Positions 5,241-37,530 of a stretch of 64,000 bases of DNA are shown one piece after another. The notes under the pieces are model-generated. The model was not told the origin of the DNA. It saw nothing but the letters and a program-made list of their open reading frames with translations, and made no database searches. Made by a program: the position numbers and the translations under genes. The stretch comes from Nanobdellota archaeon. GTDB lineage: Archaea > Nanobdellota > Nanobdellia > Pacearchaeales > GW2011-AR1. Where the stretch lies: NCBI GenBank assembly GCA_027334715.1, contig DAHWUG010000001.1:277993-341992 (forward strand). Reading direction: 5' to 3'. The first letter of the stretch is position 1, and the number at the start of each line of letters is the position of its first letter.

Positions 5241-5528
5241 TTAATTTAACTCAATTCTCATTTTTTCATAAACAAGATTTCCAAGACTATCAAAAACAAG
5301 ATAAGAACAACTTGCACCTAAACCATCTAATTCAGGACAATCATTATAATCTCTTTCGTCTTCCATAAGACCTGAATCTGCAATGAATTTAGCGCCATCT
5401 AAAGTAACAGATTCTCCGAAAACCTCTGCTCTTCTGTCTAATGAATGATGTTTAATTATTGTATACTTTTTGATTTTATTAGCTAACTCATTAGGGTTTC
5501 TTGCATTAATACCAATTCTGTTCATCAT
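5241..5528 (-). CDS. hypothetical protein (95 aa) embedded in the suf operon
   Basis: ORF track; no recognisable motif; 2-nt spacing from neighbours. Confidence 0.3.
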   Translation of the reverse strand: MMNRIGINARNPNELANKIKKYTIIKHHSLDRRAEVFGESVTLDGAKFIADSGLMEDERDYNDCPELDGLGASCSYLVFDSLGNLVYEKMRIELN

Positions 5529-6781
5529 TTGAATTTCTCCTGAATTTCCCTTAAGGAATCAACAAGGGCATCAATGTCTTCCAGCGTGTTGTAAAAATAA
5601 AAGCTTGCCCTGCAAACTCCACCATTTGCTTTAATCACAGACATCAAAGGCATTGCACAACAATGACCTGCACGTATTGCAATCTTTTTTTCATTCAGCA
5701 TTTCTGCAATATCATGAGGATGTATGGAATCCAATGTAAAAGATACAACAGGCACTTTCTCCCCTGAATTTGGATGGTATGTCTTGATTCCTTTAACCTC
5801 ATTTAATCTCTTTAATGCATATTTTAGCAAAAAAGCCTCCCACCCCGTTATATTTTCAATGCCTATTTTTTTTATGTAATTTATTGCTTCTGCAAAACCA
5901 ACTGCTCCTGCAATATTCTGCGTTCCAGCCTCGAATTTCTCAGGGGTTTTTGCCCAGCTTGCATCATTAAATGTTACTTTCTCAATCATTCCGCCCCCAA
6001 ACATGAAAGGGGAGAGTTTCTCAAGCAATTCTTTTTTGCCGTAAAGAACTCCTATTCCGTTTGGTCCCATCATTTTATGGCCTGAAAACGCAAGAAAATC
6101 ACAATCAAGATGCTTTACATCAATGGGAATATGCTGAATTGCCTGAGCTGCATCAATTACTGTTATTGCCCCTTTTTCTCTTGCTAATCTGGTTATTAGC
6201 TTAACATTGTTAATGGTTCCTAACACATTAGACGCGTAAGCAATGCTAACAATAGCTGTTTTATCACTTAGTTTTGAATTAAAGTCTTTCATATCCAGAA
6301 CAAAATCTTTTGTTATTTTTACAAACTTTAACTTAAACCCATTCCTCTTGCACAATTCCTGCCATGGAACAAGATTTGAATGATGCTCCATTTCTGTCAA
6401 AACTATTTCATCCTTTCCTTTGGGTATAATTTTTGATATCACATATGCTAGCAGATTAATTGATTCTGTCGTGTTTCTTGTGAATACTATTTCACCAGAA
6501 TTTGCTCCAATAAAGTTAGCAATAACAGTTCTTGTCTGGTCATATCTTTTCATTGCCCTGTTTGCAAGGGAATAAACTCCGCGGCCAACATTTGCATTGT
6601 CCTTTTCATAGAAGTTTTTTACAGCATTTATAACGCTTGCAGGCTTCTGGGTTGTTGCTGCATTGTCCAGATAAACAAGCCCAAGATTGTGGCTGAAAAT
6701 TGGAAAATCCTTCTTTATCTGCTTTGCAATTTCGTTTGTTATTTTCATTTTACACAACGCTGTTCTCAATCTCCAATTCAA
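5525..6781 (-). CDS. sufS: cysteine desulfurase SufS (class V aminotransferase)
   Basis: HHSNLVPWQ; PLP-Lys region SGHKMMGPNGIGVLYGK; active-site Cys loop RAGHCCA. Confidence 0.9.
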   Translation of the reverse strand: MNWRLRTALCKMKITNEIAKQIKKDFPIFSHNLGLVYLDNAATTQKPASVINAVKNFYEKDNANVGRGVYSLANRAMKRYDQTRTVIANFIGANSGEIVFTRNTTESINLLAYVISKIIPKGKDEIVLTEMEHHSNLVPWQELCKRNGFKLKFVKITKDFVLDMKDFNSKLSDKTAIVSIAYASNVLGTINNVKLITRLAREKGAITVIDAAQAIQHIPIDVKHLDCDFLAFSGHKMMGPNGIGVLYGKKELLEKLSPFMFGGGMIEKVTFNDASWAKTPEKFEAGTQNIAGAVGFAEAINYIKKIGIENITGWEAFLLKYALKRLNEVKGIKTYHPNSGEKVPVVSFTLDSIHPHDIAEMLNEKKIAIRAGHCCAMPLMSVIKANGGVCRASFYFYNTLEDIDALVDSLREIQEKFK

Positions 6782-9356
6782 TCAATCTGTTTAATTCAAC
6801 TGCATATTCCAATGGAAGCTCTTTTATTAATGGCTCTATGAAGCCAGAGACAATCATTTTTGTTGCCTCACGCTCTGGCAATCCGCGTGACATAAGATAA
6901 AAAAGCTGCTCCTCCCCTATTTTTCCAACAGCTGCTTCATGGGAGACTTCAACATCATTTTCATCAACTTCCATGCTCGGGAAGGTTGTTGCCTTGCTTT
7001 TGTTGTCAAGCATTAAACCATCACAACGAACGCTTGACTTTGATCCCGTGCAGCCGTTCTTTATTTTTACCAAACCCCTGTAAGCTGTTGTTCCGCCATT
7101 CATGCATATGCTTTTGCTTATTATATGCGAGCTTGTATTCTTAGCCATGTGATATGCCTTGCATCCTGTATCTTGGTACTGGCCTTTGTTTGCATATGCA
7201 ATTCCCACATAATCTGTCTTTGCGCCAGTCTCTAAAAGAACAGAAGAAGGATACAGCATTGTAATTCTTGAATTATGGACTATTAATCCATTAGCAACAA
7301 AATTATGATATCCTTCAACTTCAATATCAAAGGTTGGTTTTATCCCTCTTTCCTCAATTTTATTAATCCTAGAAAACCCTATTTCTTCATTAACTTTACT
7401 TCTAAAATTAAGCCCTCTTGAAGAAAAATAACCTCTTGTTGTTTTTATTTTACCAAGTTTATCTTTTTTGGCCATACACTTTAAAGGTAAAAACTTAACA
7501 TTCTTGCCATCAAATAATATTCTCCAAGAATCTTTGAGATTTACCTCTTTTCCAAGAATCATGGATTTTCTTGCTTTTCCATGGGTAAATACATTAGAAC
7601 CCCACAATCCTACTTGAATTCCAAGAAGTTTGACATCTTCAAGTAACTTTTTATTGATGCTAGTTAAGTATACAGAATGACTAGAAATGTGCCCATCAGA
7701 ATCAATATACCCTGCTAAGAAGGAAAGAATTTGACTTTCTGGTAAAGTAAAAACCCATTCCGGAATTTTTTTTGTATCTGCATTACCACTAAAACCAATT
7801 TTAGTAAACAACTGGCATAAGGTCTTAGAATTTATTATAATGTATCTCTCTTTTTTTTCTGTAACAGTATAATCAAATAATCTTTTAAGTAAGATTATTA
7901 ATTTGTCTCTATAATCTTCTCTTTCATGCGTTGCTATGTTTATTTTATTGGTATTTAAATCAATGTGTCCGTCACCAATAATTAATCCCATTAGCCACAT
8001 AAAGTCTTCATTTGTTTTCTGCGGATAATTTATCTTTTTATTATATAAATAGGAGATATTCATTTTAAATGTAGAATATTGATTTTTGCTATTAACTTCT
8101 TCTCCAATGCTAATCTTCGGTAAAATATGTGGTTTTCCTTTATGGGGAATTTTTTTTACTATTCCTATTAAATCTCCAATTTTTAATTCTTCAAGTGGTT
8201 TCCAGATAAATCTGAAAAATCCCTTTTTATGATGTGGGCTATTTTTCTCTCTTATTAATGTCAAGAATGGATGATTTGAAGAGGCTTCTATACTTCTCCC
8301 ACCTACAATAATTTTGTAAACTTTTTTACTTCCACTAAATATTTTGTTTTTAACTTTAGATGTTTTTAATCTATTAGTAAGTTCATCCCAAACAAAAATG
8401 ACATCTCCTTTTTTTATATATTGCATGTTTATAAGGCCCTTTGAATTTGTGAAAATCTTTGAATCTCCTGTAAGGCAACCTGTATTTCCATTAACCCACT
8501 CCATAACCCCATTTTCATACACAACAGCCCTTTTTGTATTCAAATTATAAACATTTTTGCTCCAGTTTTCAATGCTTGAATAACGGACTCTTGCGTTTTT
8601 TAGCACATGAATCTCAACTCCGCCTGCGTGAAGAGAATTTTCTGAATAAACAGGTGCAGAACATCCTTCAATATAATGAATCTCACTGCCTTCATCTGCG
8701 ATTATCAAAGTGTGCTCGAATTGTCCTCCTTTTCGTGCATTCATCCTAAAATAAGCCTGAAGAGGGAGGTCAACTTTCACACCTTTCGGCACGTAAATAA
8801 AAGTCCCTCCTGACCAAAAGGCTCCGTGAAGAGCTGCGAACTTATGAAGGCCCGGATTTATGCATGTTGTCATGAAATATTTTTTAAATAATTCTGGATA
8901 CTGCTGCAAACCCTGGTCACAGTCAAGGAAAATAACCCCTTTTTCTTCCCATTGTTTCTTCAGTTTATGATAAATGACTTCACTTTCATATTGCGCCCCA
9001 ACACCTGCCAGAGCTTCCCTTTCAGCTTTTGGAATTCCAAGCTTTTCGTAGGTTTCCTTGATTTCTGCAGGAACATCATCCCATGAAGTTGCATTTTTTT
9101 TTGCATCGGGTTTGATAAAATATGAGATTTCGTTCAAATTCAGATCAGCCAAGCTTGGCCCGAAATTTGGCATTGGTATCTCATTGAATAATTTTAATGC
9201 TTCAAGCCTTTTATGCAGCATCCATTCTGGTTCTTTTTTATCTTTGGATATCTTGCGTACAAGCTCCTCGCTTATTCCTGTTGTTGCCTTGAACTTCAAT
9301 TTTTCAGGATCACTGTGGTCATAGATTTCCCGATTTGTATTTATTTGATTACCCAT
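6750..9356 (-). CDS. sufB: Fe-S cluster assembly protein SufB interrupted by a 402-aa intein (host about 466 aa)
   Basis: SufB blocks flank an insertion that begins CLTGDSKI and ends VHN before extein S. Confidence 0.9.
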   Translation of the reverse strand: MGNQINTNREIYDHSDPEKLKFKATTGISEELVRKISKDKKEPEWMLHKRLEALKLFNEIPMPNFGPSLADLNLNEISYFIKPDAKKNATSWDDVPAEIKETYEKLGIPKAEREALAGVGAQYESEVIYHKLKKQWEEKGVIFLDCDQGLQQYPELFKKYFMTTCINPGLHKFAALHGAFWSGGTFIYVPKGVKVDLPLQAYFRMNARKGGQFEHTLIIADEGSEIHYIEGCSAPVYSENSLHAGGVEIHVLKNARVRYSSIENWSKNVYNLNTKRAVVYENGVMEWVNGNTGCLTGDSKIFTNSKGLINMQYIKKGDVIFVWDELTNRLKTSKVKNKIFSGSKKVYKIIVGGRSIEASSNHPFLTLIREKNSPHHKKGFFRFIWKPLEELKIGDLIGIVKKIPHKGKPHILPKISIGEEVNSKNQYSTFKMNISYLYNKKINYPQKTNEDFMWLMGLIIGDGHIDLNTNKINIATHEREDYRDKLIILLKRLFDYTVTEKKERYIIINSKTLCQLFTKIGFSGNADTKKIPEWVFTLPESQILSFLAGYIDSDGHISSHSVYLTSINKKLLEDVKLLGIQVGLWGSNVFTHGKARKSMILGKEVNLKDSWRILFDGKNVKFLPLKCMAKKDKLGKIKTTRGYFSSRGLNFRSKVNEEIGFSRINKIEERGIKPTFDIEVEGYHNFVANGLIVHNSRITMLYPSSVLLETGAKTDYVGIAYANKGQYQDTGCKAYHMAKNTSSHIISKSICMNGGTTAYRGLVKIKNGCTGSKSSVRCDGLMLDNKSKATTFPSMEVDENDVEVSHEAAVGKIGEEQLFYLMSRGLPEREATKMIVSGFIEPLIKELPLEYAVELNRLIELEIENSVV
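7272..8477 (-). mobile_element. intein with LAGLIDADG homing-endonuclease domain inside sufB (residues 294-695)
   Basis: Block A CLTGDSKIF; LAGLIDADG motifs LMGLIIGDGHI and FLAGYIDSDGHI; C-terminal ...GLIVHN|S; boundaries computed from residue counts. Confidence 0.8.
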
Positions 9357-13079: not shown

Positions 13080-13131
13080 TTAATGCTTTCTAGCAATAAG
13101 TTTTTTAGGGCTTGAGGTTTTATAAGAAAAG

Positions 13132-13202
13132 TGCGCCGGCCGAGAATTGAACTCGGGTCTGAACCTTGGCAAGGTCCTATTCTACCACTTAACTACCAGC
13201 GC
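13132..13202 (-). tRNA. tRNA-Gly (anticodon GCC)
   Basis: Reverse complement gives GCGCTGG acceptor, anticodon stem GGACC/GGTTC with loop TTGCCAA, T-arm CCGAG-TTCAATT-CTCGG, discriminator A. Confidence 0.8.
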
Positions 13203-13969: not shown

Positions 13970-14929
13970 ATGAAGAGAACAGTAGATGGCAGATTTATTG
14001 AAAAAAGAGTTATTATTGATAAAAATGATTTAAAGGAAATAATGAATTCTATTAAAAAAAAGAATAACTTCACTTGGGATGAAATAGCAAACAAGATTGG
14101 CGTAAATCCACAAACAGTTAAACATGACTGGCTTGTTGAAAATAGAACATTACCTTTATCATTTTTTAAGAAATTACTTATTTTATCCAAGACAAACAAA
14201 GATTATAAATTTGAAGTAATTGACCCTTTTTGGGGTCAAAAAATATCTCATGGAAAGCAAAAACTAAAGAATATTCGTTTTCCGAACAAAAGCGAAACAA
14301 GTTTTGCTGAATTTTATGGAATCCTGCTTGGCGATGGGTGCATAAACTCTGATTTGAAGAGCCTTTCTATAACTGGCGATAAATATCTGGATTATTATTA
14401 CTATAATAATTATCTTCCTAGATTAATAAGAAGAACGTTTAAAATCAGTCCAAAAATTTATCAAAATAAGGATGAAAAAGTAATCCGTTGCGTTGTTTAT
14501 AGCAAATCAGTAGATAAATACATGATTGATGCTGGTTTTCCTGTAGGAATTAAGTATGGAAAAGATTGTTCGATTCCTATTTATATATCCAACAACGAAA
14601 AAAACTTAGCTGCCTGCATTAGGGGCTTAATGGATACAGACGGGTCTTTATCAGCTCACCCTAATGTTAAAGTAATGATTCATTTATCTATTACTATTGA
14701 ATCCCTGCGTAAATCAGTCTTTGATGGTCTAAAAAAATTAGGTATAAGCGGGGGGATGTTTGACAAAGGAATAATGATTTATGGGACAGAAAAAATAGAT
14801 AAATTTCATAAGGTCATAGGATTTTCTAATTTTAAGAACAATTACAAATATGCACAGTTTAAAAGAACAGGAAGGGTCCCCTCTTCAAAGGAAGTAGAAA
14901 TGTTTATAAGAAAGAAAGCTGGGATTTAA
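13970..14929 (+). CDS. free-standing LAGLIDADG-family endonuclease-like protein with N-terminal HTH-like domain
   Basis: Two dodecapeptide motifs FYGILLGDGCI and IRGLMDTDGSL; 319 aa; ends 6 nt before tRNA-Val. Confidence 0.7.
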   Translation: MKRTVDGRFIEKRVIIDKNDLKEIMNSIKKKNNFTWDEIANKIGVNPQTVKHDWLVENRTLPLSFFKKLLILSKTNKDYKFEVIDPFWGQKISHGKQKLKNIRFPNKSETSFAEFYGILLGDGCINSDLKSLSITGDKYLDYYYYNNYLPRLIRRTFKISPKIYQNKDEKVIRCVVYSKSVDKYMIDAGFPVGIKYGKDCSIPIYISNNEKNLAACIRGLMDTDGSLSAHPNVKVMIHLSITIESLRKSVFDGLKKLGISGGMFDKGIMIYGTEKIDKFHKVIGFSNFKNNYKYAQFKRTGRVPSSKEVEMFIRKKAGI

Positions 14930-14934
14930 TTATC

Positions 14935-15006
14935 GGCCCATTAGTCTAATGGTTAGAACGGCTCGTTTACACCGAGCAGGCACAGGTCCGATTCCTGTAT
15001 GGGCCA
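14935..15006 (+). tRNA. tRNA-Val (anticodon UAC)
   Basis: Acceptor GGCCCAT/ATGGGCC; anticodon stem GCTCG/CGAGC with loop TTTACAC; T-arm ACAGG-TCCGATT-CCTGT; one C-A mismatch in the D-stem. Confidence 0.7.
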
Positions 15007-15078
15007 CTCTTTTATTTATTAACTTAAAAATGGTAACATCTAATAAAGTTTATAAAGTAGCAATTTATCCCACTTTTC

Positions 15079-15234
15079 ATGAAAGTTAAGCTAAGCATCT
15101 CTATGGAAGAAGAGCTGGACAAGAGGCTCGAGGACAAAGTGAAAGACAGCATTTTCAGGAACAAAAGCCATTTAATAGAATACGCCGTGAAATCATTCTT
15201 GAAAAAGGAAAAAATGGAGGCAAGAGCAAAATGA
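15079..15234 (+). CDS. ribbon-helix-helix (CopG/Arc/MetJ-like) small DNA-binding protein, 51 aa, not in ORF track
   Basis: MKVKLSISMEEELDKRLEDKVKDSIFRNKSHLIEYAVKSFL has the beta-strand plus two-helix pattern; its stop overlaps the start of the next gene (ATGA). Confidence 0.55.
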   Translation: MKVKLSISMEEELDKRLEDKVKDSIFRNKSHLIEYAVKSFLKKEKMEARAK

Positions 15235-17558
15235 GCGCTAAAGAAGACGCGTGGGCATTCAAGCAAAATAATCTAATAGAGGGATATGGAAATAAACTCT
15301 CTTCTATTGAAGGTCATATAATTCCTGTTCCAGAACCAAAAAGACTTCAACCAGCAACACCTGCTGATTTAGAGTACAGAGACGGAGATATTCTTCAAAT
15401 ATATGAACTTGGGGAAAAACTTGCAAACACAGAAAATGGCGGACAGGGAACTATTTACAGAGCAAAGAGAAAATCAGATGGCCTTGATACTGTTGTAAAG
15501 GTTTATGCAGCAGCAGAAACAGGAAACTGGGATGATATTTTTACTGAAGAGAAAAGAGCAGGGCGTGAAATAAGATTCCTTGAAAGAGCAAACAGAGAAG
15601 GAGTTCCTGGAGTTCCAAGAATAGTCCAGCATGGGGTTACAGGTTCTTTCATAAAGACGCCTGTTGCTGTCTTTGATTTCATTCCTGGAAAATCTCTGGA
15701 AGAGGAAGTTCTTGATCAAAGTTATTCCCCTTCAGCAGAAAATGTTCTAGGACTTTTCTCAGGTTTGGTTCCTGCCTTGGAATATGCTCATCATTCAAAT
15801 GGTGTAAAGCCTGTTGTTCACAGAGATATCAATCCTGGAAACATAAAAGTCAATGGGCATCCTGTTCTTATGGATTGGGCTTCTTCTACACCAACTAGTG
15901 GAAAAACCCAGTTAAGAACACATATGTTCACAGAATATTTCACAGCTCCAGAAGTTGTTGGAGGAAGTGCATTTGATGGAAGAGCTGATATCTATAGCAT
16001 GGGAAAAGTCCTCCAGTTCATGCTTTTAGGGCAGGTTTTCAAAGATGCAGATGGAAATCCCAAAACCAGCGATTTTGACAGATTAAATATTCCAAAAGAA
16101 GTTGCACAAATACTTGCAAAAGCAACACAAGAAAATCCAGATAAAAGATACAAGACAGTAAGGGAATTTTATCATGCTTTGGAATCTGTTTTCCAGACAG
16201 GAAGAAGCATGCCAACAAGAAATGAACTGCTAAAACATGAGACTGCTAAACCTGGAGATTGCATTGTTAAGATTAATGAAGATGGATCTGTTCATATTGG
16301 CTATTTCGAACCAGAACTTCCAGATAAACCTCACTGTGGAAACACCTTTGAGGGAAAAACTGTCTATGATATTTTTAGAGCCATAAATACTTATCTTTTA
16401 AATATTGGTTCTGACGAGGCAACTCTTGCGTATGCAAAGCATGTTGCACAGACAAATCCTTTAGTAAGAGGTACATTGGAAGGCAAAAGGACTTTGGAAG
16501 ACGTTGCAAGAGAGAAGAAACCTCGCTTTGATATTACTGATTTATTAGAAAAAATACCTTTTGTAAAATCATCTCGTTATCCTGAACCAGAAAGAGATTT
16601 AGAAGAAGCAAAAGACAAGTATCTTGCTAAAAGAAAACAGTTATATGAAATTTTTGGAGTGAAAGAAATGAGGGATTTGAATGTTGGTTCTGTAAGTTTA
16701 AGTGTTGGAGGCAGCATTGTTGGTGTCGCCGCAGGGACTTTTTCTGCTTTTAACTTAGGAATGTATGACACTCTTTCAGGAGCTTTGTTTGCTATGGGCA
16801 CTACAGTAATAGGGGCGATTTTAGGTCTAAACATTGGAGAATATATAGTAAACAAAAAACTACAAAAAAAGGCGCGTGAAGTTGATTCATGGATTAGGGA
16901 AGCAAAAAGAGCGCAAGGATTAGAAGGGAAAGTTGGAGAAGGAGAAATAAAGTTGACGGAGGAAGAAATAACAAGAATAAAAGATGATGTCGTGATTTAT
17001 AGAGCAGGAATACCTTTTTTAGGGGCTTTGATTGATTGTGGTTATACTTTTCTCACAAAAAATTATGGTGTTGCTTTAGGCGCATTACTTTCGTTACCTT
17101 TAATAGGAGAAACTGTAGGTTTTCTTGCTACAAAATATCTCAAGAATAAAAAGCTCAAACAAAAACGCCTTACTGCGGGGTTGGATGAAGACGGGATGAA
17201 AGCGTATGCTGGATTAATCACTGGAGACTCTAAAAATCTACCTTCAAGAACTCCAAAACTTGAAAAAATATTCTCTGTATTAAAACTTAAGAAAAGTTTC
17301 TTGAAACAAAAATTTAAAAATTCTAAAGCTAAAGTTAAATTAGATAATTATCGTGTAATAATAAGTGCTCTTCCTTCAGAAGAATTAAGGGCAAAAAATA
17401 TATATGATAATATAAGACAGTATTATGAGATTAATACTGTTTTTTCAAATTTCCCGGACCACTTTCAGCCATTTCAAGCAGGAGTAATCCTAAGCGACGA
17501 AACAAAAATGCCTGATGTAAGAAGAATCAATGGAGTTGGCGGTGTAGCAATTAATTAA
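15231..17558 (+). CDS. protein-kinase-like (PKL) phosphotransferase domain fused to a glycine-zipper multi-TM domain and basic C-terminal tail
   Basis: Gly-rich loop GQGTIYRAK, VVKVY lysine, catalytic loop VHRDINPGNIKV (HxDxxxxN), LMDW (DFG-equivalent), FTAPE; residues about 480-640 hydrophobic and GxxxG-rich; 775 aa. Confidence 0.6.
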   Translation: MSAKEDAWAFKQNNLIEGYGNKLSSIEGHIIPVPEPKRLQPATPADLEYRDGDILQIYELGEKLANTENGGQGTIYRAKRKSDGLDTVVKVYAAAETGNWDDIFTEEKRAGREIRFLERANREGVPGVPRIVQHGVTGSFIKTPVAVFDFIPGKSLEEEVLDQSYSPSAENVLGLFSGLVPALEYAHHSNGVKPVVHRDINPGNIKVNGHPVLMDWASSTPTSGKTQLRTHMFTEYFTAPEVVGGSAFDGRADIYSMGKVLQFMLLGQVFKDADGNPKTSDFDRLNIPKEVAQILAKATQENPDKRYKTVREFYHALESVFQTGRSMPTRNELLKHETAKPGDCIVKINEDGSVHIGYFEPELPDKPHCGNTFEGKTVYDIFRAINTYLLNIGSDEATLAYAKHVAQTNPLVRGTLEGKRTLEDVAREKKPRFDITDLLEKIPFVKSSRYPEPERDLEEAKDKYLAKRKQLYEIFGVKEMRDLNVGSVSLSVGGSIVGVAAGTFSAFNLGMYDTLSGALFAMGTTVIGAILGLNIGEYIVNKKLQKKAREVDSWIREAKRAQGLEGKVGEGEIKLTEEEITRIKDDVVIYRAGIPFLGALIDCGYTFLTKNYGVALGALLSLPLIGETVGFLATKYLKNKKLKQKRLTAGLDEDGMKAYAGLITGDSKNLPSRTPKLEKIFSVLKLKKSFLKQKFKNSKAKVKLDNYRVIISALPSEELRAKNIYDNIRQYYEINTVFSNFPDHFQPFQAGVILSDETKMPDVRRINGVGGVAIN

Positions 17559-32383: not shown

Positions 32384-32991
32384 ATGATGTTAAAAACCCA
32401 AAGGTTGATTTTAAGGAAACCAAAGATTTCCGATTGGAAAGATCTTGTCGAAGGTGTAAGTCCTTTAGAAGTATCTCAATACTTGGAAAGTGTGCCTCAT
32501 CCTTATAAAAAAAAGGATGCCCTTTGGTTCATTAAAAATAGTTTAAAAAAGTGGAGCAAGAAAAATAAGACCTCTTACCTTTTTTTTATTGAACTAAAAT
32601 CAGAAAAAAAGTTATTGGAGTTATTAGTATATTCAATTATAATAAGCAGCATAAAACCTGCGAAACAGGCTCTTGGATTAATAAAAACTATTGGAGAAAG
32701 GGTTATATTACAGAGGCTAAAATTGCACTTAATGAATTTGTGTTTAATAAACTAGGAGTAAGAAAGATGGAGACAGGAGCTTATGAAAAAAATAAAGCTT
32801 CAAATGCAACTCAAAGAGCAATGGGTTATAAATATGAAGGAACAAGAATAAAACACCATATTTCAAAATCAACTGGAAAAATCCATGATGAACATTTGTA
32901 TGGCCTTTTCAAAGAAGACTGGAAAAAGAACCTTCCAAAATTAAGGAAAAAATTAAATAAAAAGATTGAGATGTTAAATAAGAAAAAATGA
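32384..32991 (+). pseudogene. GNAT (RimL/RimJ-like) N-acetyltransferase interrupted by a frameshift at an A7 run (32604-32610)
   Basis: Frame 2 encodes MMLKTQRLILRKP...FFIELKSEKK; frame 1 continues VIGVISIFNYNKQHKTCETGSWINKNYWRKGYITEAKIALNEFVFNKLGVRKMETG...; one extra A would restore a ~200-aa protein. Confidence 0.55.
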
Positions 32992-34208
32992 AAGATTTAA
33001 AGGAAAAAGCTAGGGCATATGCGCTGAAAAATGCCATTGCATATGAAGGAAAGGCGCAGACAGGCAGCGTTATTTCTGCTTTGTTTAATGAAGGTCTTAA
33101 ACCAGAAGATGTAAAAAAATATTCAAAGGAAATAAATGAAATTGTTTTTGAAGTCAACGGGCTTTCGCCTGAGGAACAAAATGAAGAATTCAAAAAGCTG
33201 GAGAAAGAAACCCATCACAGAGAAGGGAGAGAAGGATTGCCTGAATTGCCTGGAGCAAAAAAAGGAAAAGTGATAATGCGTTTTGCGCCTTCGCCATCCG
33301 GCCCTTTCCATGTGGGTCATGCGCTTACAGGAAGCATTTCCTATCTTTTTGTAAAAAAATATGGTGGTATATTTTATGTAAGAATTGAAGACACAAATCC
33401 TGAGAACATTTACCCTAAAGCTTATGACATGATAAAAAAAGAGAGCGAATGGCTTTTTCCCGGAAAATTCCTGAAGATAATAATCCAGTCAGACAGAATG
33501 AAAATTTATTATGACCTTGCTGAAAAACTGATAAAGAAAAATGCTGCATATGTCTGCACCTGCAGCCAGGAAGATTTTAAAAAATTTGTAGAGAATAAAA
33601 AAGATTGTCCCTGCAGGAGTTTAAATGTTAAGGATAATTTAATTAGATGGAAAAAGATGCTCGATAAACGCGGATTTCAGGAAGGTGAGGCTGTTTTGCG
33701 ATTTAAGCAGAAAGGGGGGATGCAGGACAAAAATCCTGCAATGAGAGATTTTCCACTTGCAAGAATAAATCTTGAAAAGCATGCAAGGCAGGGAAACAAG
33801 TACAGGGTCTGGCCATTGATGAATCTGGCTGTGACTGCAGATGATATTGATTTGAGAATGACCCATATCATAAGGGCAAAAGATCACAGGGACAACGCAG
33901 AAAGGCAAAAAAGGATTTACACTGCCATGGGGCTGAAAAAGCAAGTGCCATGGACGGGATTTCTTGGAAGAATAAAATTCACAGACATGGAACTTTCAGC
34001 AACAAAAATGAGAAAGGCAATTGATGCTGGAGAATACACTGGTTGGGATGATCAAGAACTTCCAACAATTGCATCAATCATAAAAAAAGGGTACAGGCCA
34101 TCTGCTTTCTGGAAGTTTGCCGAGAGAATCGGGCTTTCTGAAAATGATAAAATAATGGACAAGCATGAATTTTTCAGGCTTTTGGACGATTTTAACCGAG
34201 GACAATAA
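32988..34208 (+). CDS. gltX: archaeal-type glutamyl-tRNA synthetase catalytic core lacking the C-terminal anticodon-binding beta-barrel domains
   Basis: N-terminal helical domain, HIGH motif PSPSGPFHVGHA, MSK-like LSATKMRK, WDDQELPTIASIIKKGYRP helical subdomain, then ends at 406 aa (typical length about 550). Confidence 0.7.
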   Translation: MKDLKEKARAYALKNAIAYEGKAQTGSVISALFNEGLKPEDVKKYSKEINEIVFEVNGLSPEEQNEEFKKLEKETHHREGREGLPELPGAKKGKVIMRFAPSPSGPFHVGHALTGSISYLFVKKYGGIFYVRIEDTNPENIYPKAYDMIKKESEWLFPGKFLKIIIQSDRMKIYYDLAEKLIKKNAAYVCTCSQEDFKKFVENKKDCPCRSLNVKDNLIRWKKMLDKRGFQEGEAVLRFKQKGGMQDKNPAMRDFPLARINLEKHARQGNKYRVWPLMNLAVTADDIDLRMTHIIRAKDHRDNAERQKRIYTAMGLKKQVPWTGFLGRIKFTDMELSATKMRKAIDAGEYTGWDDQELPTIASIIKKGYRPSAFWKFAERIGLSENDKIMDKHEFFRLLDDFNRGQ

Positions 34209-34281
34209 CATTTTTAAACTAATCTTTGTTTAATAAAATAAGTTATTGATATAACTTTAACTTAATCAAAAAGGAGGGTAA

Positions 34282-34734
34282 ATGCAAAACAAAAAGGGTT
34301 TGTCGGAAATTGTGGCTACTTTGATAATAATCCTATTGACACTTGTTGCTGTAGGAATTATTTGGGTTGTCATAAAGGGAGTTGTTACGAGCGGAACAAA
34401 TCAAATAAGCGTAACTTCTGAGTGCACTGCTATTAATCTGAATGCAGTATCTGTTAATGAAAGTTCTCCAGGAATTTATGATGTTACATTGCATAGATCA
34501 TCTGGCGGAGATAACACACTTGCAGGCATAAAGGTTAATATATTTAATGATACAACAAGCAGCGGACCAATGGACTTTGGAACACTTAACTTGCTAGATC
34601 AGCATACTGTATCTTTAAATACATCAACTGCAACACTTGTAACAGGCGGAAACAGGATTGAGTACACTCCGTTCTTCAAGGATTCATCAGGTAATGAACA
34701 GCTCTGCTCAGGAACACAGTCATTTTCATTTTAA
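34282..34734 (+). CDS. archaeal type IV pilin-like protein (class III signal peptide)
   Basis: MQNKKGLSEIVATLIIILLTLVAVGIIWVV: KG followed by an E(+5)-containing hydrophobic helix. Confidence 0.6.
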   Translation: MQNKKGLSEIVATLIIILLTLVAVGIIWVVIKGVVTSGTNQISVTSECTAINLNAVSVNESSPGIYDVTLHRSSGGDNTLAGIKVNIFNDTTSSGPMDFGTLNLLDQHTVSLNTSTATLVTGGNRIEYTPFFKDSSGNEQLCSGTQSFSF

Positions 34735-35005: not shown

Positions 35006-35077
35006 GGCGGTTGTAGTTCAGTGGCAGAACATCCGACTGTGGCTCGGGAAACGAGAGTTCGATTCTCTCCTTCCGCC
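35006..35077 (+). tRNA. tRNA-His (anticodon GUG) with encoded G-1; acceptor stem carries two U-U mismatches
   Basis: G-1 plus GCGGTTG...CTTCCGC-C73; D-stem GTTC/GAAC; anticodon stem TCCGA/TCGGG with loop CTGTGGC; T-arm GAGAG-TTCGATT-CTCTC. Confidence 0.6.
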
Positions 35078-35103
35078 CTGTTCAACATAGTTCAGAGTAG
35101 AAA

Positions 35104-35656: not shown

Positions 35657-36799
35657 ATGAATACAGAACCAGTAAAGGGATTCAGGGATTTTTCAGGCAA
35701 GGAAGCTGAAAACAGAGCAGAGATGAGAAAGATAATAGTCAGGACTTTTGAAAGATATGGATTTGAACCTGTAGAGACGCCGATAATTGAACAGGAAGAA
35801 TTTGTTCGTGGAGAGAACAAAGAAGATGAAGCTATTTCAGACATATTTAAATTGCAGGACAAGGGAAAAAGAAATCTTGCTTTGCGTTATGAATTTACAT
35901 TCCAGTTGAAAAGAATTATGAAAAACAAAAAGCTTCCTTACAAAAGATACCAGATTGGCGAGGTTTTCAGGGATGAACCTGTTTCTTCAAACAGATTCAG
36001 GCAGTTTACGCAGTGCGATGTTGATATTGTTGGTTCAAATGTTAAAAATGAAGCAGAAATTTTGGCAATGACCAGTGAGCTGATGAGAGAGTTTGGCATA
36101 GAGCCAATAATTCTTGTAAACAACAGGAGACTTCTTAATGAAATACTCAATGATTTGAAAATAAAGGAAAAAGACAGGGAACAAGTGCTGAGGGAGATTG
36201 ACAAGTTTGGCAAAATAGGAGAAAAGGAAGTTATTTCTAATCTTAAAAAATTAAATGCTGATAAAGTTATTAAAGTGCTTAAAAGTGGCGAAGCTTACTT
36301 TAAAAAATTCCAAGCATACAAGGAAATCATTTCTCTGATAGAATATTGCAGACTTTACGGCGTCAAAATATTATTTTCACCTACTGTTATTCGGGGGCTT
36401 AGCTATTACAATGAGAATGTTTTTGAGGTAAAAGCAAAAAATATAAGTGAAACACTTGTTGCAGGGGGAAGCTATATGTTTGACGGCATTCAATGCACAG
36501 GAATTTCTTTCGGCCTGGATAGATTAGCTTTGATATCTAAGCTGAGATTTGAAAGAGAAAAATATCTTATTATCTCATTGGGGGAAGATGAAGCGGCAAT
36601 TGGCTTGGCACGAAAGCTTAGGGAGAAAAACAGAGGCAAAGATGTAACTGTATACTACGGAAAACCATCAAAAGCGCTTGATTATGCAAATTCTTACGGC
36701 ATAAATGAGGTTATTTTTGTCGGAGAGAAGGAAATCAAGGAAAAAAAGTTCAAAGTCAAAGACATGAAAACAGGAAAGGAAAGTGCACTTAAGTTATAA
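35657..36799 (+). CDS. hisS: histidyl-tRNA synthetase (class II; compact, 380 aa)
   Basis: Motif 1/2 region GFRDF, RYEF..QLKR, YQIGEVFRDEP, RQFTQCDVDIVG; C-terminal class-II anticodon-binding domain. Confidence 0.85.
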   Translation: MNTEPVKGFRDFSGKEAENRAEMRKIIVRTFERYGFEPVETPIIEQEEFVRGENKEDEAISDIFKLQDKGKRNLALRYEFTFQLKRIMKNKKLPYKRYQIGEVFRDEPVSSNRFRQFTQCDVDIVGSNVKNEAEILAMTSELMREFGIEPIILVNNRRLLNEILNDLKIKEKDREQVLREIDKFGKIGEKEVISNLKKLNADKVIKVLKSGEAYFKKFQAYKEIISLIEYCRLYGVKILFSPTVIRGLSYYNENVFEVKAKNISETLVAGGSYMFDGIQCTGISFGLDRLALISKLRFEREKYLIISLGEDEAAIGLARKLREKNRGKDVTVYYGKPSKALDYANSYGINEVIFVGEKEIKEKKFKVKDMKTGKESALKL

Positions 36800-36843: not shown

Positions 36844-37530
36844 ATTAAGTTAGGCATTATTAAAGGTGCAACAGAAGAAGAACTAAAGTCAAAAAAGTTC
36901 AATATTTATCTGGGTATAAGCTTAGGAAACAAGTGGTTTACAAAAGATAATACAAGAGAACATTTAAACTTCGCTTTGAAGTATACTAAAGATAGAATTG
37001 GATTACTTGTTGCAGATACTCTTCACGCAATTAATTATGAGATTAGGAATAAAATTTCTTATGAAAAAAGCTATAAAAAATCTCTTCAAAAAGGCACAAA
37101 GTTTATAGAAATTTTAAAGGAATTAATTGAAGAGTTGCCAGAAAAAGAACAAAAGAGAATTGATATAATAAGATGGGATGATATTAAAAAAGAGAAATTA
37201 TATAGAGAATTATTCCCCATTGCTAAAAAAGAGTTTAGAGAGGATAATACTTTCAAAGAAGCTATTTTAGATATAATCAGAGAACAGGTCAAACAAGAGG
37301 ACAGAATATTTAGTAAAAAAGATATAGAAAGATTTGGAGAATATATAATTGAAGAACTTCCCGAACTAGCTAATGGCTTTATTTTCAAAAATACTTATTA
37401 TAATTGTTATTTATATCCTTATTATAGCAAACTTGCTCAATTTGTTGAAGATTTACAACAAGGAAAAATCTTCACGCAAATCAGTGAAAAACTTGTAAAG
37501 AGGTATAATGTTTTTGTAGAATTAAGGTAA
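36844..37530 (+). CDS. cyclodipeptide synthase (CDPS)-like protein, tRNA-dependent; start codon unresolved
   Basis: Open frame from the stop at 36841: ...KKFNIYLGISLGNKWFTKDNTREHLNFALKYTKDRIGLLVADTLH (compare AlbC ALIGISAGNSYFS...VVYVDTH), later EYIIEELPEL (Y-x3-E) and YYNCYLYPYY; 228 aa; first ATG/GTG/TTG only at 36976. Confidence 0.55.
   Translation: MKLGIIKGATEEELKSKKFNIYLGISLGNKWFTKDNTREHLNFALKYTKDRIGLLVADTLHAINYEIRNKISYEKSYKKSLQKGTKFIEILKELIEELPEKEQKRIDIIRWDDIKKEKLYRELFPIAKKEFREDNTFKEAILDIIREQVKQEDRIFSKKDIERFGEYIIEELPELANGFIFKNTYYNCYLYPYYSKLAQFVEDLQQGKIFTQISEKLVKRYNVFVELR

What the first reader, a model, noticed from the sequence alone, without database searches (positions are those of the whole stretch)
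32988..34208. GluRS that ends before the anticodon-binding domain
The protein has the archaeal GluRS N-terminal helical domain, HIGH (PSPSGPFHVGHA), the MSK-like motif (TKMRK) and the WDDxxxPT...GYR helical subdomain, but terminates at 406 aa, about 150 aa short of the two beta-barrel anticodon-binding domains. It is followed directly by an unrelated pilin gene. This is the archaeal/eukaryal-type counterpart of the bacterial GluQRS-style truncation. It could be a tRNA-modifying or aa-transfer paralogue, a split gene, or a decaying essential gene.
Basis: partly seen in the sequence, partly recalled or inferred. Interest (0 to 1): 0.55.

Follow-up and report, generated by a model that had tools for sequence, protein, structure and literature searches.

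The report
Archaeal GluRS without its anticodon-binding domain
A whole lineage of tiny DPANN archaea (Pacearchaeota) carries, in place of the normal glutamyl-tRNA synthetase, a well-conserved version that has lost the part that normally reads the tRNA anticodon, so this essential enzyme probably recognises its tRNA in another way.

Summary
ORF 32988-34208 (+) encodes a 406-aa archaeal-type GluRS. It has the N-terminal YqeY domain, Rossmann fold, zinc-binding CP domain and stem-contact fold. [quoted passage not shown]

It is not an artefact, a pseudogene or an oddity of one genome:
- 80 of 80 best GTDB species hits (Pacearchaeota/Nanoarchaeota labels) end at the same boundary, at 397-440 aa.
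- dN/dS is 0.04-0.15.
- The HIGH motif, the Glu-binding Arg/Asp/Arg triad and the four zinc cysteines are invariant or nearly so.

Synteny and a tree point to the positional ortholog of the housekeeping GluRS, shortened in steps: about 553-570 aa, then 468 aa (most of the barrel region, including the distal barrel, deleted), then about 400 aa. Similar truncations occur independently in a Micrarchaeota lineage and in another DPANN lineage, again at the canonical GluRS-L7Ae-S28e position.

No free-standing ABD gene was found. Every stand-alone candidate I checked was a contig-edge, N-gap or frameshift fragment of a full-length gene.

Best reading (about 0.7): a minimal, anticodon-blind housekeeping GluRS. 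Its catalytic body carries about 14 more positive charges than that of full-length relatives.

Not shown: that no second GluRS or ABD exists elsewhere in these genomes. I found no description of this form in the literature searched.

The parts
32988..34208 (+). Complete gene for the 406-aa ABD-less archaeal-type GluRS (stop TAA at 34206-34208)
32988..33215 (+). N-terminal YqeY-type helical domain (aa 1-76), four predicted helices; motif AYALKNA..GkA..gsVIS.LFnEGL is >=90% conserved in the family
   Evidence: Aligns to 3aii residues 8-~85, which PMC2978374 calls the YQEY domain; AF2 helices at 4-18, 25-33, 39-57 and 61-74; conservation
33216..33266 (+). Linker (aa 77-93); residues 78-82 have low pLDDT
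33267..33503 (+). First half of the Rossmann fold (aa 94-172), with Glu-binding R98 (33279-33281) and HIGH = HVGH (33309-33320)
33504..33860 (+). CP (acceptor-binding) insertion domain (aa 173-291), with zinc motif CxC...CxC (C190/C192/C207/C209, nt 33555-33614) and Glu-binding D286 (33843-33845)
33861..33995 (+). Second half of the Rossmann fold (aa 292-336), with Glu-binding R296 (33873-33875)
33993..34007 (+). KMSKS-equivalent loop L336-S-A-T-K (L336 and S337 invariant in the family)
33996..34205 (+). Stem-contact-fold helical domain (aa 337-406). It ends in the conserved ...LLDxFN(K/R) motif, about 8 residues before the position of Arg403 of M. thermautotrophicus GluRS, which is the first ABD residue and a U35 contact
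34209..34281 (.). AT-rich spacer with GGAGG ahead of the next gene; no remnant of beta-barrel coding sequence

Best explanation
This is the orthologous, functional housekeeping glutamyl-tRNA synthetase of a large Pacearchaeota (DPANN) lineage. [quoted passage not shown] It has lost both C-terminal beta-barrel anticodon-binding domains by stepwise deletion.

Shown: the protein keeps everything needed for glutamate activation and transfer. That includes the HIGH motif, the KMSKS-like loop, the Arg/Asp/Arg glutamate triad, the zinc-binding CP/acceptor domain, the stem-contact fold and the N-terminal YqeY domain. It is under strong purifying selection. It occupies the genomic slot of the full-length gene. 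No ABD was found in cis or as a free gene.

Inferred: the enzyme binds tRNA through the acceptor stem and D-arm side only (CP domain and stem-contact fold). It is helped by the YqeY domain; the related C-terminal domains of GatB/GatE bind the tRNA elbow/D-loop (from my own knowledge, not checked here). A markedly more basic catalytic body may also contribute. On this reading, tRNA-Glu/Gln identity in these organisms is read without the anticodon.
For: Boundary and catalytic features. The protein ends exactly at the end of the stem-contact fold. HIGH, the four zinc cysteines, and D286 and R296 of the Glu triad are invariant in 66 family members; R98 is conserved in at least 90%. The AF2 model has pLDDT 92.7 and superposes on 3aii at 1.9 A over 321 columns.

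Distribution and selection. The best 120 protein clusters (69-83% identical) are nearly all 398-413 aa (two shorter) and carry only PF00749. The genome scan found 461 relatives. The best 80 come from 80 different species genomes, and each ends in a stop 0-19 codons after query residues 402-406. dN/dS is 0.04-0.15 in close pairs. All domains, including YqeY, are 62-74% identical on average.

Positional orthology.
- Full-length P0290: GluRS-L7Ae-S28e-L24e.
- 468-aa P0271: NTP_transf_2/AP_endonuc_2/189 aa/524 aa upstream and L7Ae-S28e-L24e downstream.
- Window and L003: the same upstream block.
- L009: a full-length gene behind the same AP_endonuc_2 block.

The NJ tree places the family as sister to the 468-aa form, and that pair as sister to the full-length P0122/P0123/P0126. 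The 468-aa form keeps only the C-terminal half of the proximal barrel.

Searches for an ABD.
- None in the window.
- None within +-6 kb in the 80 genomes.
- The six stand-alone candidates I inspected among 120 short ABD proteins were all fragments of full-length genes: an N-gap, contig edges and frameshift/split-ORF fragments.
- Of 80 metagenomic ABD loci, 76 are contiguous with the catalytic domain in one ORF, 3 lie at contig edges and 1 is frameshifted.

Charge. Net charge of residues 94-404 is +22.4+-5.8 in the family (n=76), +8.4 in the sister full-length group and +6.7+-7.6 in 105 full-length GluRS.

Specificity of the loss. HisRS in the same window keeps its anticodon-binding domain.

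Precedent. An engineered C-truncated E. coli GluRS remains specific for tRNA-Glu. I take this only from the title of Dubois et al. 2009, as listed in the reference list of PMC3927822.
Against: I could not scan any whole genome. A second GluRS, a GlnRS, or an ABD fused to another protein or too diverged to detect is therefore not excluded. Only 64 kb of a 351-kb contig was available, plus +-6-10 kb around the homologs.

In characterised GluRS/GlnRS systems the anticodon is a major identity element, and anticodon mutations in tRNA-Gln cost up to 10^5-fold in kcat (PMC9976931). Loss of the ABD is therefore expected to be very costly.

No tRNA-Glu or tRNA-Gln gene was present in any fetched locus, so a compensating change in tRNA identity could not be examined.

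The excess positive charge is mainly lysine (13.7% against 9.8%). It could partly reflect composition or shared ancestry, and the sequences compared are not independent.

The NJ tree has no support values.
Confidence: 0.7

Rival explanations
1. Two-piece enzyme: the anticodon-binding barrels are still made, either from a separate gene elsewhere in the genome or fused to another protein such as GatE or another tRNA-binding protein. They would act in trans with the 406-aa catalytic piece.
For: Split genes are known in DPANN archaea, for example Nanoarchaeum equitans (my own knowledge). The title of Dubois et al. 2009 says a free distal domain stimulates a C-truncated E. coli GluRS (reference list of PMC3927822). 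Whole genomes could not be scanned. The short-protein search listed only the best 120 of 500 hits.
Against: No ABD in the window or within +-6 kb in 80 genomes. The six stand-alone candidates inspected were fragments of full-length genes: L009 has an N-gap, L010 and L092 are contig edges, L011 is a frameshift and L093 is the downstream ORF of a gene split next to a contig edge (cause not inspected), and P0125+P0293 is a split of a 554-aa gene. Of 80 metagenomic ABD loci, 76 are in cis with the catalytic domain and none is free-standing. None of the ABD hits lies on a contig whose length matches a contig carrying the truncated gene. The 468-aa intermediate shows deletion in place, and its remnant has replaced the QFER motif, whose Q and R align with the U35-binding Gln530/Arg533, by FFSN.
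Confidence: 0.1
2. Neofunctionalised paralogue: a GluQRS-like enzyme that glutamylates a modified tRNA base or transfers Glu to another acceptor, while a canonical GluRS elsewhere in the genome serves translation.
For: The only well-studied natural ABD-less GluRS relative, bacterial YadB/GluQRS, is exactly such a paralogue (PMC2978374; PMC9437257). PGAP names the family 'glutamate--tRNA ligase family protein' because it falls below the equivalog cut-offs.
Against: The gene sits in the slot of the housekeeping GluRS and is sister to full-length forms through a 468-aa intermediate. The truncated Micrarchaeota and P0137 forms also sit directly upstream of L7Ae-S28e. Each of the best 80 genome hits came from a different genome, so none of these 80 hits is a second copy in a genome already represented (a more divergent second copy would not rank among the best 80). 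GluQRS models score only 68-108 bits against cut-offs of 250-453. The protein keeps the YqeY and stem-contact-fold domains. Its branch is not unusually long. Queuosine is not an archaeal modification (my own knowledge). A second GluRS would be surprising in genomes this reduced.
Confidence: 0.1
3. The truncated enzyme is a crippled relic that survives because the cell depends on a host or partner organism, or tolerates very slow or error-prone Glu-tRNA synthesis.
For: DPANN archaea are often obligate episymbionts with reduced genomes (my own knowledge). Stepwise erosion resembles reductive evolution.
Against: dN/dS is 0.04-0.15 and the catalytic residues are invariant or nearly so across more than 66 members. 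The length is fixed across at least 80 species. Import of charged tRNA or of an aaRS from a host is not known in archaea.
Confidence: 0.05
4. Assembly artefact, frameshift or recent pseudogene.
For: Several ~400-aa database entries really are artefacts of full-length genes: P0125+P0293, P0142, L009, L011.
Against: An identical protein is found in three assemblies. All 80 of the 80 best-matching species genomes share the same stop boundary. There is no downstream remnant. Purifying selection is strong.
Confidence: 0.01

Closest known systems
Archaeal non-discriminating GluRS (M. thermautotrophicus, PDB 3aii; TIGR00463 / PRK04156)
   Same: Same fold and domain order from the YqeY domain through the Rossmann fold, zinc-binding CP domain and stem-contact fold. 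About 40% identity, 1.9 A rmsd over 321 columns. Same Glu-binding Arg/Asp/Arg triad and HIGH motif.
   Different: Lacks residues equivalent to 400-552, which are the proximal and distal beta-barrels and include the U35 contacts Arg403, Gln530 and Arg533 and the C34 contact Asp462. Scores fall below both equivalog cut-offs. The catalytic body carries about 14 more net positive charges.
Bacterial GluQRS / YadB (tRNA-Asp queuosine glutamyl transferase)
   Same: A natural member of the GluRS superfamily made of the catalytic domain without an anticodon-binding domain (PMC2978374).
   Different: GluQRS derives from the bacterial-type GluRS, is about 300 aa and lacks the YqeY domain. It is a paralogue that coexists with a full GluRS. 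The protein here is of the archaeal/eukaryal type, is 406 aa with YqeY and stem-contact fold, sits in the housekeeping gene's position, and scores far below the GluQRS cut-offs.
Engineered C-truncated E. coli GluRS (Dubois et al. 2009, Biochemistry 48:6012; Dasgupta et al. 2009, FEBS Lett 583:2114; both cited in PMC3927822)
   Same: Shows that a GluRS without its distal anticodon-binding part can still be specific for tRNA-Glu. I rely on the titles only, because the papers are not held.
   Different: A laboratory construct of the bacterial alpha-helical-cage type. The protein here is a natural, selected form of the beta-barrel type, fixed in a whole lineage.
468-aa and 474-aa intermediate GluRS forms in related DPANN lineages (P0121 cluster, P0139)
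   Same: 59% identical to the query (P0121). Same upstream synteny. Sister in the tree.
   Different: They keep a 67-70-aa tail corresponding to the C-terminal half of the proximal barrel, with most of the barrel region (including the distal barrel) deleted. In P0121 the QFER motif, whose Q and R align with the U35-binding Gln/Arg, is replaced by FFSN, and HIGH reads HIGN.

Membership tests
Archaeal/eukaryal-type GluRS (TIGR00463 gltX_arch, PRK04156) | Class I Rossmann catalytic domain (PF00749) with HIGH and a KMSKS-like loop | tested here: met
   PF00749 E = 3.4e-59 at residues 94-390. HVGH at 108-111, with H108, G110 and H111 invariant. L336 and S337 invariant.
Archaeal/eukaryal-type GluRS (TIGR00463 gltX_arch, PRK04156) | Glutamate-specific hydrogen-bond triad (Arg100/Asp282/Arg292 in M. 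thermautotrophicus) | tested here: met
   The equivalents are R98, D286 and R296, mapped through the 3aii alignment. D286 and R296 are invariant and R98 is conserved in at least 90% of 66 members.
Archaeal/eukaryal-type GluRS (TIGR00463 gltX_arch, PRK04156) | N-terminal YqeY domain, zinc-binding CP domain and stem-contact fold | tested here: met
   Alignment to 3aii residues 8-389. C190/C192/C207/C209 invariant. AF2 model at pLDDT 92.7. Foldseek match to 3aii.
Archaeal/eukaryal-type GluRS (TIGR00463 gltX_arch, PRK04156) | Two C-terminal beta-barrel anticodon-binding domains (PF03950, PF20974) | tested here: not met
   No Pfam hit. The NCBIfam models are matched only to position ~394 of 567. 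The alignment shows the protein ending before the barrels. No tblastn hit in the window.
Archaeal/eukaryal-type GluRS (TIGR00463 gltX_arch, PRK04156) | Score above the curated equivalog cut-off | tested here: not met
   415.9 bits against 516, and 354.1 against 401.75. The shortfall comes from the missing C-terminal third.
Archaeal/eukaryal-type GluRS (TIGR00463 gltX_arch, PRK04156) | Orthology to the housekeeping gene (position and phylogeny) | tested here: met
   Synteny. NJ tree (no support values).
Archaeal/eukaryal-type GluRS (TIGR00463 gltX_arch, PRK04156) | [quoted passage not shown] | not testable with these tools
   Needs an aminoacylation assay.
GluQRS / YadB | Sequence membership (TIGR03838 and the PRK05710 models) | tested here: not met
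   68-108 bits against cut-offs of 250-453.
GluQRS / YadB | Paralogue that coexists with a canonical GluRS in the same genome | tested here: inconclusive
   Positional orthology and the fact that the best 80 genome hits come from 80 different genomes argue against it. No whole genome could be scanned.
GluQRS / YadB | Glutamylates queuosine-34 of tRNA-Asp | not testable with these tools
   Biochemical property. Archaea are not known to use queuosine (my own knowledge).
GlnRS | Sequence membership (TIGR00440) and a Gln-specific pocket | tested here: not met
   162 bits against a cut-off of 425.8. The GluRS Arg/Asp/Arg triad is retained.

The most novel reading that the evidence does not exclude
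Hundreds of DPANN species, in at least three independent lineages, translate with a naturally anticodon-blind GluRS as their only GluRS. That would mean tRNA-Glu/tRNA-Gln identity has moved entirely to the acceptor stem, D-arm and elbow, read by the CP domain, the stem-contact fold, the YqeY domain and an extra-basic surface. It would be the first natural case in which a class Ib synthetase that normally depends heavily on the anticodon has abandoned anticodon reading. It would also offer a ready-made scaffold for anticodon-independent Glu-tRNA pairs.
Probability: 0.55. Interest if true: 0.75.

Novelty: new variant of a known kind. Interest (0 to 1): 0.62.

Why it matters
GluRS and GlnRS are textbook examples of synthetases that read the anticodon, and whose catalysis is coupled to tRNA binding. 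A large natural clade has deleted the whole anticodon-binding module from its housekeeping GluRS, an evolutionary intermediate is still extant, and the loss has recurred in other DPANN lineages.

If this enzyme is the only GluRS in these genomes, it gives a natural experiment on three points. How little of an aaRS is needed? How is tRNA identity re-allocated during genome reduction? How is the Glu/Gln/Asp boundary of the code kept without anticodon reading?

There is also a practical consequence. Marker-gene and annotation pipelines score these proteins below the equivalog thresholds, so GluRS may be reported as missing or partial in such genomes.

Tried and rejected
- ABD inside the window: tblastn with three beta-barrel domains found nothing.
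- Free-standing ABD proteins in the 5.8-billion-protein database: the best 120 hits were all <=291 aa, and most sat on tiny contigs. The six I inspected were artefacts of full-length genes: L009 an N-gap, L010 and L092 contig edges, L011 a frameshift, L093 an ORF downstream of a 303-aa ORF cut by the contig edge (cause of the split not inspected), and P0125+P0293 a split of a 554-aa gene.
- Metagenome scan with the 8-sequence ABD alignment failed for lack of a conserved stretch. A 4-sequence alignment worked and gave no free-standing ABD.
- tRNA-Glu/tRNA-Gln genes, wanted for a look at identity elements: none in the window or in about 100 related loci. Only His, Ala and Asp in the related loci, plus Ser, Gly, Val, His and Trp in the window.
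- GatD/GatE in the window: the 25 ORFs put through Pfam, including most of the large ones, gave none.
- Downstream 150-aa ORF as a possible partner: it has a prepilin-like signal and no Pfam hit. A similar gene follows the GluRS in L003. I treated it as unrelated.
- Literature: seven full-text searches found no description of an ABD-less archaeal-type GluRS. Dubois 2009 is not held.
- Several ~400-aa representatives (P0125, P0142, P0186, P0187 and others) were rejected as evidence because they are fragments or frameshifts.
Full report
**1. The observation**

ORF 32988..34208 (+) is a clean 406-codon gene with an ATG start and a TAA stop. A second in-frame stop follows three codons later.

Pfam sees only the class I Glu/Gln catalytic domain, PF00749, at residues 94-390. 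The two NCBIfam archaeal GluRS equivalogs match from their position 3 to about position 390 of 560-567. Both scores fall below the cut-offs (415.9 < 516; 354.1 < 401.75). The best solved relative is M. thermautotrophicus ND-GluRS (3aii, 553 aa), which aligns over its residues 8-389 only.

The paper on that structure gives these domain limits (PMC2978374):
- YQEY domain, 1-85
- Rossmann fold, 86-170 and 288-331
- CP domain, 171-287
- stem-contact fold, 354-399
- proximal beta-barrel, 400-408 and 500-552
- distal beta-barrel, 409-499

The window protein therefore ends at the end of the stem-contact fold. It lacks both barrels, including the equivalents of the U35 contacts Arg403, Gln530 and Arg533 and the C34 contact Asp462. 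A multiple alignment with the closest full-length relatives shows the same boundary.

The KMSKS-equivalent loop is L336-S-A-T-K, so 'TKMRK' overlaps it and is slightly offset.

tblastn with three beta-barrel domains finds nothing anywhere in the 64 kb (all E > 1). The window holds no second GluRS-like gene. Downstream come 73 nt of AT-rich spacer and a 150-aa ORF with a prepilin-like N-terminus and no Pfam hit.

**2. It is a conserved family, not an accident**

The best 120 database clusters are 69-83% identical. Nearly all are 398-413 aa (two shorter), and all carry PF00749 only. Source names are Pacearchaeota or Nanoarchaeota, and some sit on contigs of up to 777 kb.

A scan of one genome per GTDB species found 461 relatives. 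The best 80 come from 80 different genomes. In every one the reading frame stops 0-19 codons after query residues 402-406, giving lengths of 397-440 aa. None has an ABD-like sequence within +-6 kb.

Nei-Gojobori dN/dS for close pairs is 0.04-0.15. Mean pairwise identity is 62-74% in every domain, the YqeY domain included. In 66 members H108, G110 and H111 of HIGH, the four zinc cysteines, D286 and R296 of the Glu triad, and L336/S337 are invariant; R98 is conserved in at least 90% (mapping).

AlphaFold gives a confident model (pLDDT 92.7). It superposes on 3aii at 1.9 A over 321 columns.

Decay and artefact are excluded.

**3. It is the ortholog of the housekeeping gene, shortened in steps**

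The library of representatives clustered at 50% identity gives the nearest other forms:
- full-length GluRS of 553-570 aa at 46-50% identity (P0122, P0123, P0126)
- a 468-aa form at 59% identity (P0121; seven of its eight cluster members are 468 aa and one is a 183-aa fragment)

The 468-aa form keeps only a 67-aa tail. That tail aligns with the last strands of the proximal barrel, so most of the barrel region, including the distal barrel that is inserted within the proximal one, has been deleted. In the tail, the QFER motif, whose Q and R align with Gln530/Arg533, is replaced by FFSN.

An NJ tree, without support values, places the ~400-aa family as a single clade. It is sister to the 468-aa form, and that pair is sister to the full-length forms.

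Synteny agrees:
- Full-length gene: GluRS-L7Ae-S28e-L24e-NDK.
- 468-aa gene: NTP_transf_2/AP_endonuc_2/189 aa/524 aa upstream, and L7Ae-S28e-L24e downstream.
- Window and L003: the same upstream block.
- L009: a full-length gene, broken only by an assembly gap, behind the same AP_endonuc_2 block.

This is what deletion in place predicts. It is not what an extra paralogue predicts.

**4. The loss has recurred**

Two further forms end at the same boundary and lie among full-length sequences in the tree. One is a 404-aa GluRS from a Micrarchaeota MAG (P0190). The other is a 399-aa form on contigs of up to 271 kb (P0137). Both sit directly upstream of L7Ae-S28e, with no barrel remnant.

P0129, P0158 and P0170 look similar, but I did not check their context. 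A 474-aa form (P0139) resembles the 468-aa intermediate.

Several other ~400-aa entries are artefacts and were set aside.

**5. Is the ABD supplied in trans?**

A profile of beta-barrel domains returned only proteins of <=291 aa. Most are contig-edge fragments. The six I inspected were pieces of full-length genes: an N-gap, contig edges and frameshift/split-ORF fragments.

A metagenome scan with an ABD alignment gave 80 loci. In 76 the ABD is contiguous with the catalytic domain in one ORF. Three lie at contig edges and one is frameshifted. None is free-standing.

No ABD hit lies on a contig whose length matches a contig that carries the truncated gene.

This argues against a split gene but does not prove its absence. 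I could not scan a whole genome. An ABD fused to another protein, or a highly diverged one, would have escaped.

**6. How it most likely works**

Shown: all elements for glutamate activation and transfer are present and under selection.

Inferred: tRNA is held by the CP domain at the acceptor end and by the stem-contact fold at the D-stem side. The YqeY domain would help. In my own knowledge, not tested here, the related C-terminal domains of GatB/GatE bind the tRNA D-loop and elbow.

One observation fits compensation for lost tRNA affinity. Residues 94-404 carry a net charge of +22.4+-5.8 in the family (n=76). The sister full-length group has +8.4, and 105 full-length GluRS have +6.7+-7.6. 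The difference is mainly extra lysine. The caveat is that the sequences are related, and composition may contribute.

The loss is specific to GluRS. HisRS, 1.4 kb downstream, keeps its anticodon-binding domain.

An engineered C-truncated E. coli GluRS is reported to remain specific for tRNA-Glu. I know this only from the title cited in PMC3927822.

Against an easy ride: anticodon nucleotides are strong identity elements for GluRS and GlnRS, and mutating them in tRNA-Gln costs up to 10^5-fold in kcat (PMC9976931).

**7. Comparison with what is known**

The protein works like, and descends from, archaeal ND-GluRS. It fails that family's definition on one tested feature, the beta-barrel ABD, and on the curated score.

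It resembles bacterial GluQRS only in lacking an ABD. It is not a member: it scores 68-108 bits against cut-offs of 250-453, belongs to a different GluRS lineage, has extra domains, and sits in the orthologous position.

A review of aaRS paralogues lists YadB as the only GluRS-like paralogue (PMC9437257). Seven full-text searches found no description of this form.

**8. Verdict**

On interpretation, the architecture is right. 'Paralogue, split or decaying' are each disfavoured in favour of a minimal housekeeping GluRS, at confidence 0.7. The main open point is a whole-genome census for a second GluRS or an ABD.

Novelty: a new variant of a known kind. Interest: 0.62.

Noticed in passing
window 36976-37530 (+): A 184-aa ORF just after HisRS matches the cyclodipeptide synthase family (PF16715, E = 6.3e-6, 26.5 bits against a cut-off of 27; profile positions 70-173 of 220). 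It is short for a CDPS. It sits in a neighbourhood of tRNA-His, HisRS and GluRS.
   Followed up: partly
window 32384-32755 and 32740-32991 (+): Two overlapping ORFs (123 and 83 aa) immediately upstream of GluRS look like one RimJ/RimL-type GNAT acetyltransferase split by a frameshift. The first ORF matches Acetyltransf_3 profile positions 1-63 of 138. An independent ENA contig (L001) also calls two ORFs here (123 and 74 aa).
   Followed up: partly
window 6750-9356 (-): An 868-aa SufB/SufD-type Fe-S assembly protein is interrupted by an intein with a LAGLIDADG homing-endonuclease domain. The next gene (5525-6781) is a class V aminotransferase (Aminotran_5) of the family that includes cysteine desulfurases.
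   Followed up: no
window 13970-14929 (+): A free-standing 319-aa ORF with a LAGLIDADG domain lies between tRNA-Gly (13131-13202) and tRNA-Val (14935-15007).
   Followed up: no
window 35007-35078 and 35657-36799 (+); loci L012-L091: tRNA-His(GTG) lies 1-5 kb downstream of the truncated GluRS in most of the 80 related genomes. In the window, and in L003, HisRS follows the tRNA-His; elsewhere HisRS was not checked. The HisRS is short (380 aa) but keeps its HGTP_anticodon domain.
   Followed up: partly
window 34282-34734 (+); L003 11245-11739: A 150-aa ORF with an archaeal prepilin-like N-terminus (MQNKKGLSEIVATLIIILLTLVAVG...) and no Pfam hit follows GluRS. A similar 164-aa gene follows it in a relative that is 70% identical.
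   Followed up: partly
L094 5001-6215 (Micrarchaeota MNVG01000007.1); L095 5001-6200: Independent ABD-less GluRS genes (404 and 399 aa) in other DPANN lineages, each directly upstream of L7Ae-S28e. The 399-aa form has also lost the four zinc-binding cysteines.
   Followed up: partly
L005 10001-11407 (JGI Ga0078972_1004248): The 468-aa intermediate GluRS keeps only the C-terminal half of the proximal barrel, and its HIGH motif reads HIGN.
   Followed up: partly
window 15231-17558 (+): A 775-aa protein with a eukaryotic-type Ser/Thr protein kinase domain (Pkinase, E = 1.7e-21).
   Followed up: no
L026 (DATKUW010000084.1) and L046 (JAHYJW010000002.1): Contigs that carry this archaeal GluRS are filed in bins labelled 'Bacillota bacterium' and 'Patescibacteria group bacterium'. 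These are probably binning or labelling errors.
   Followed up: no
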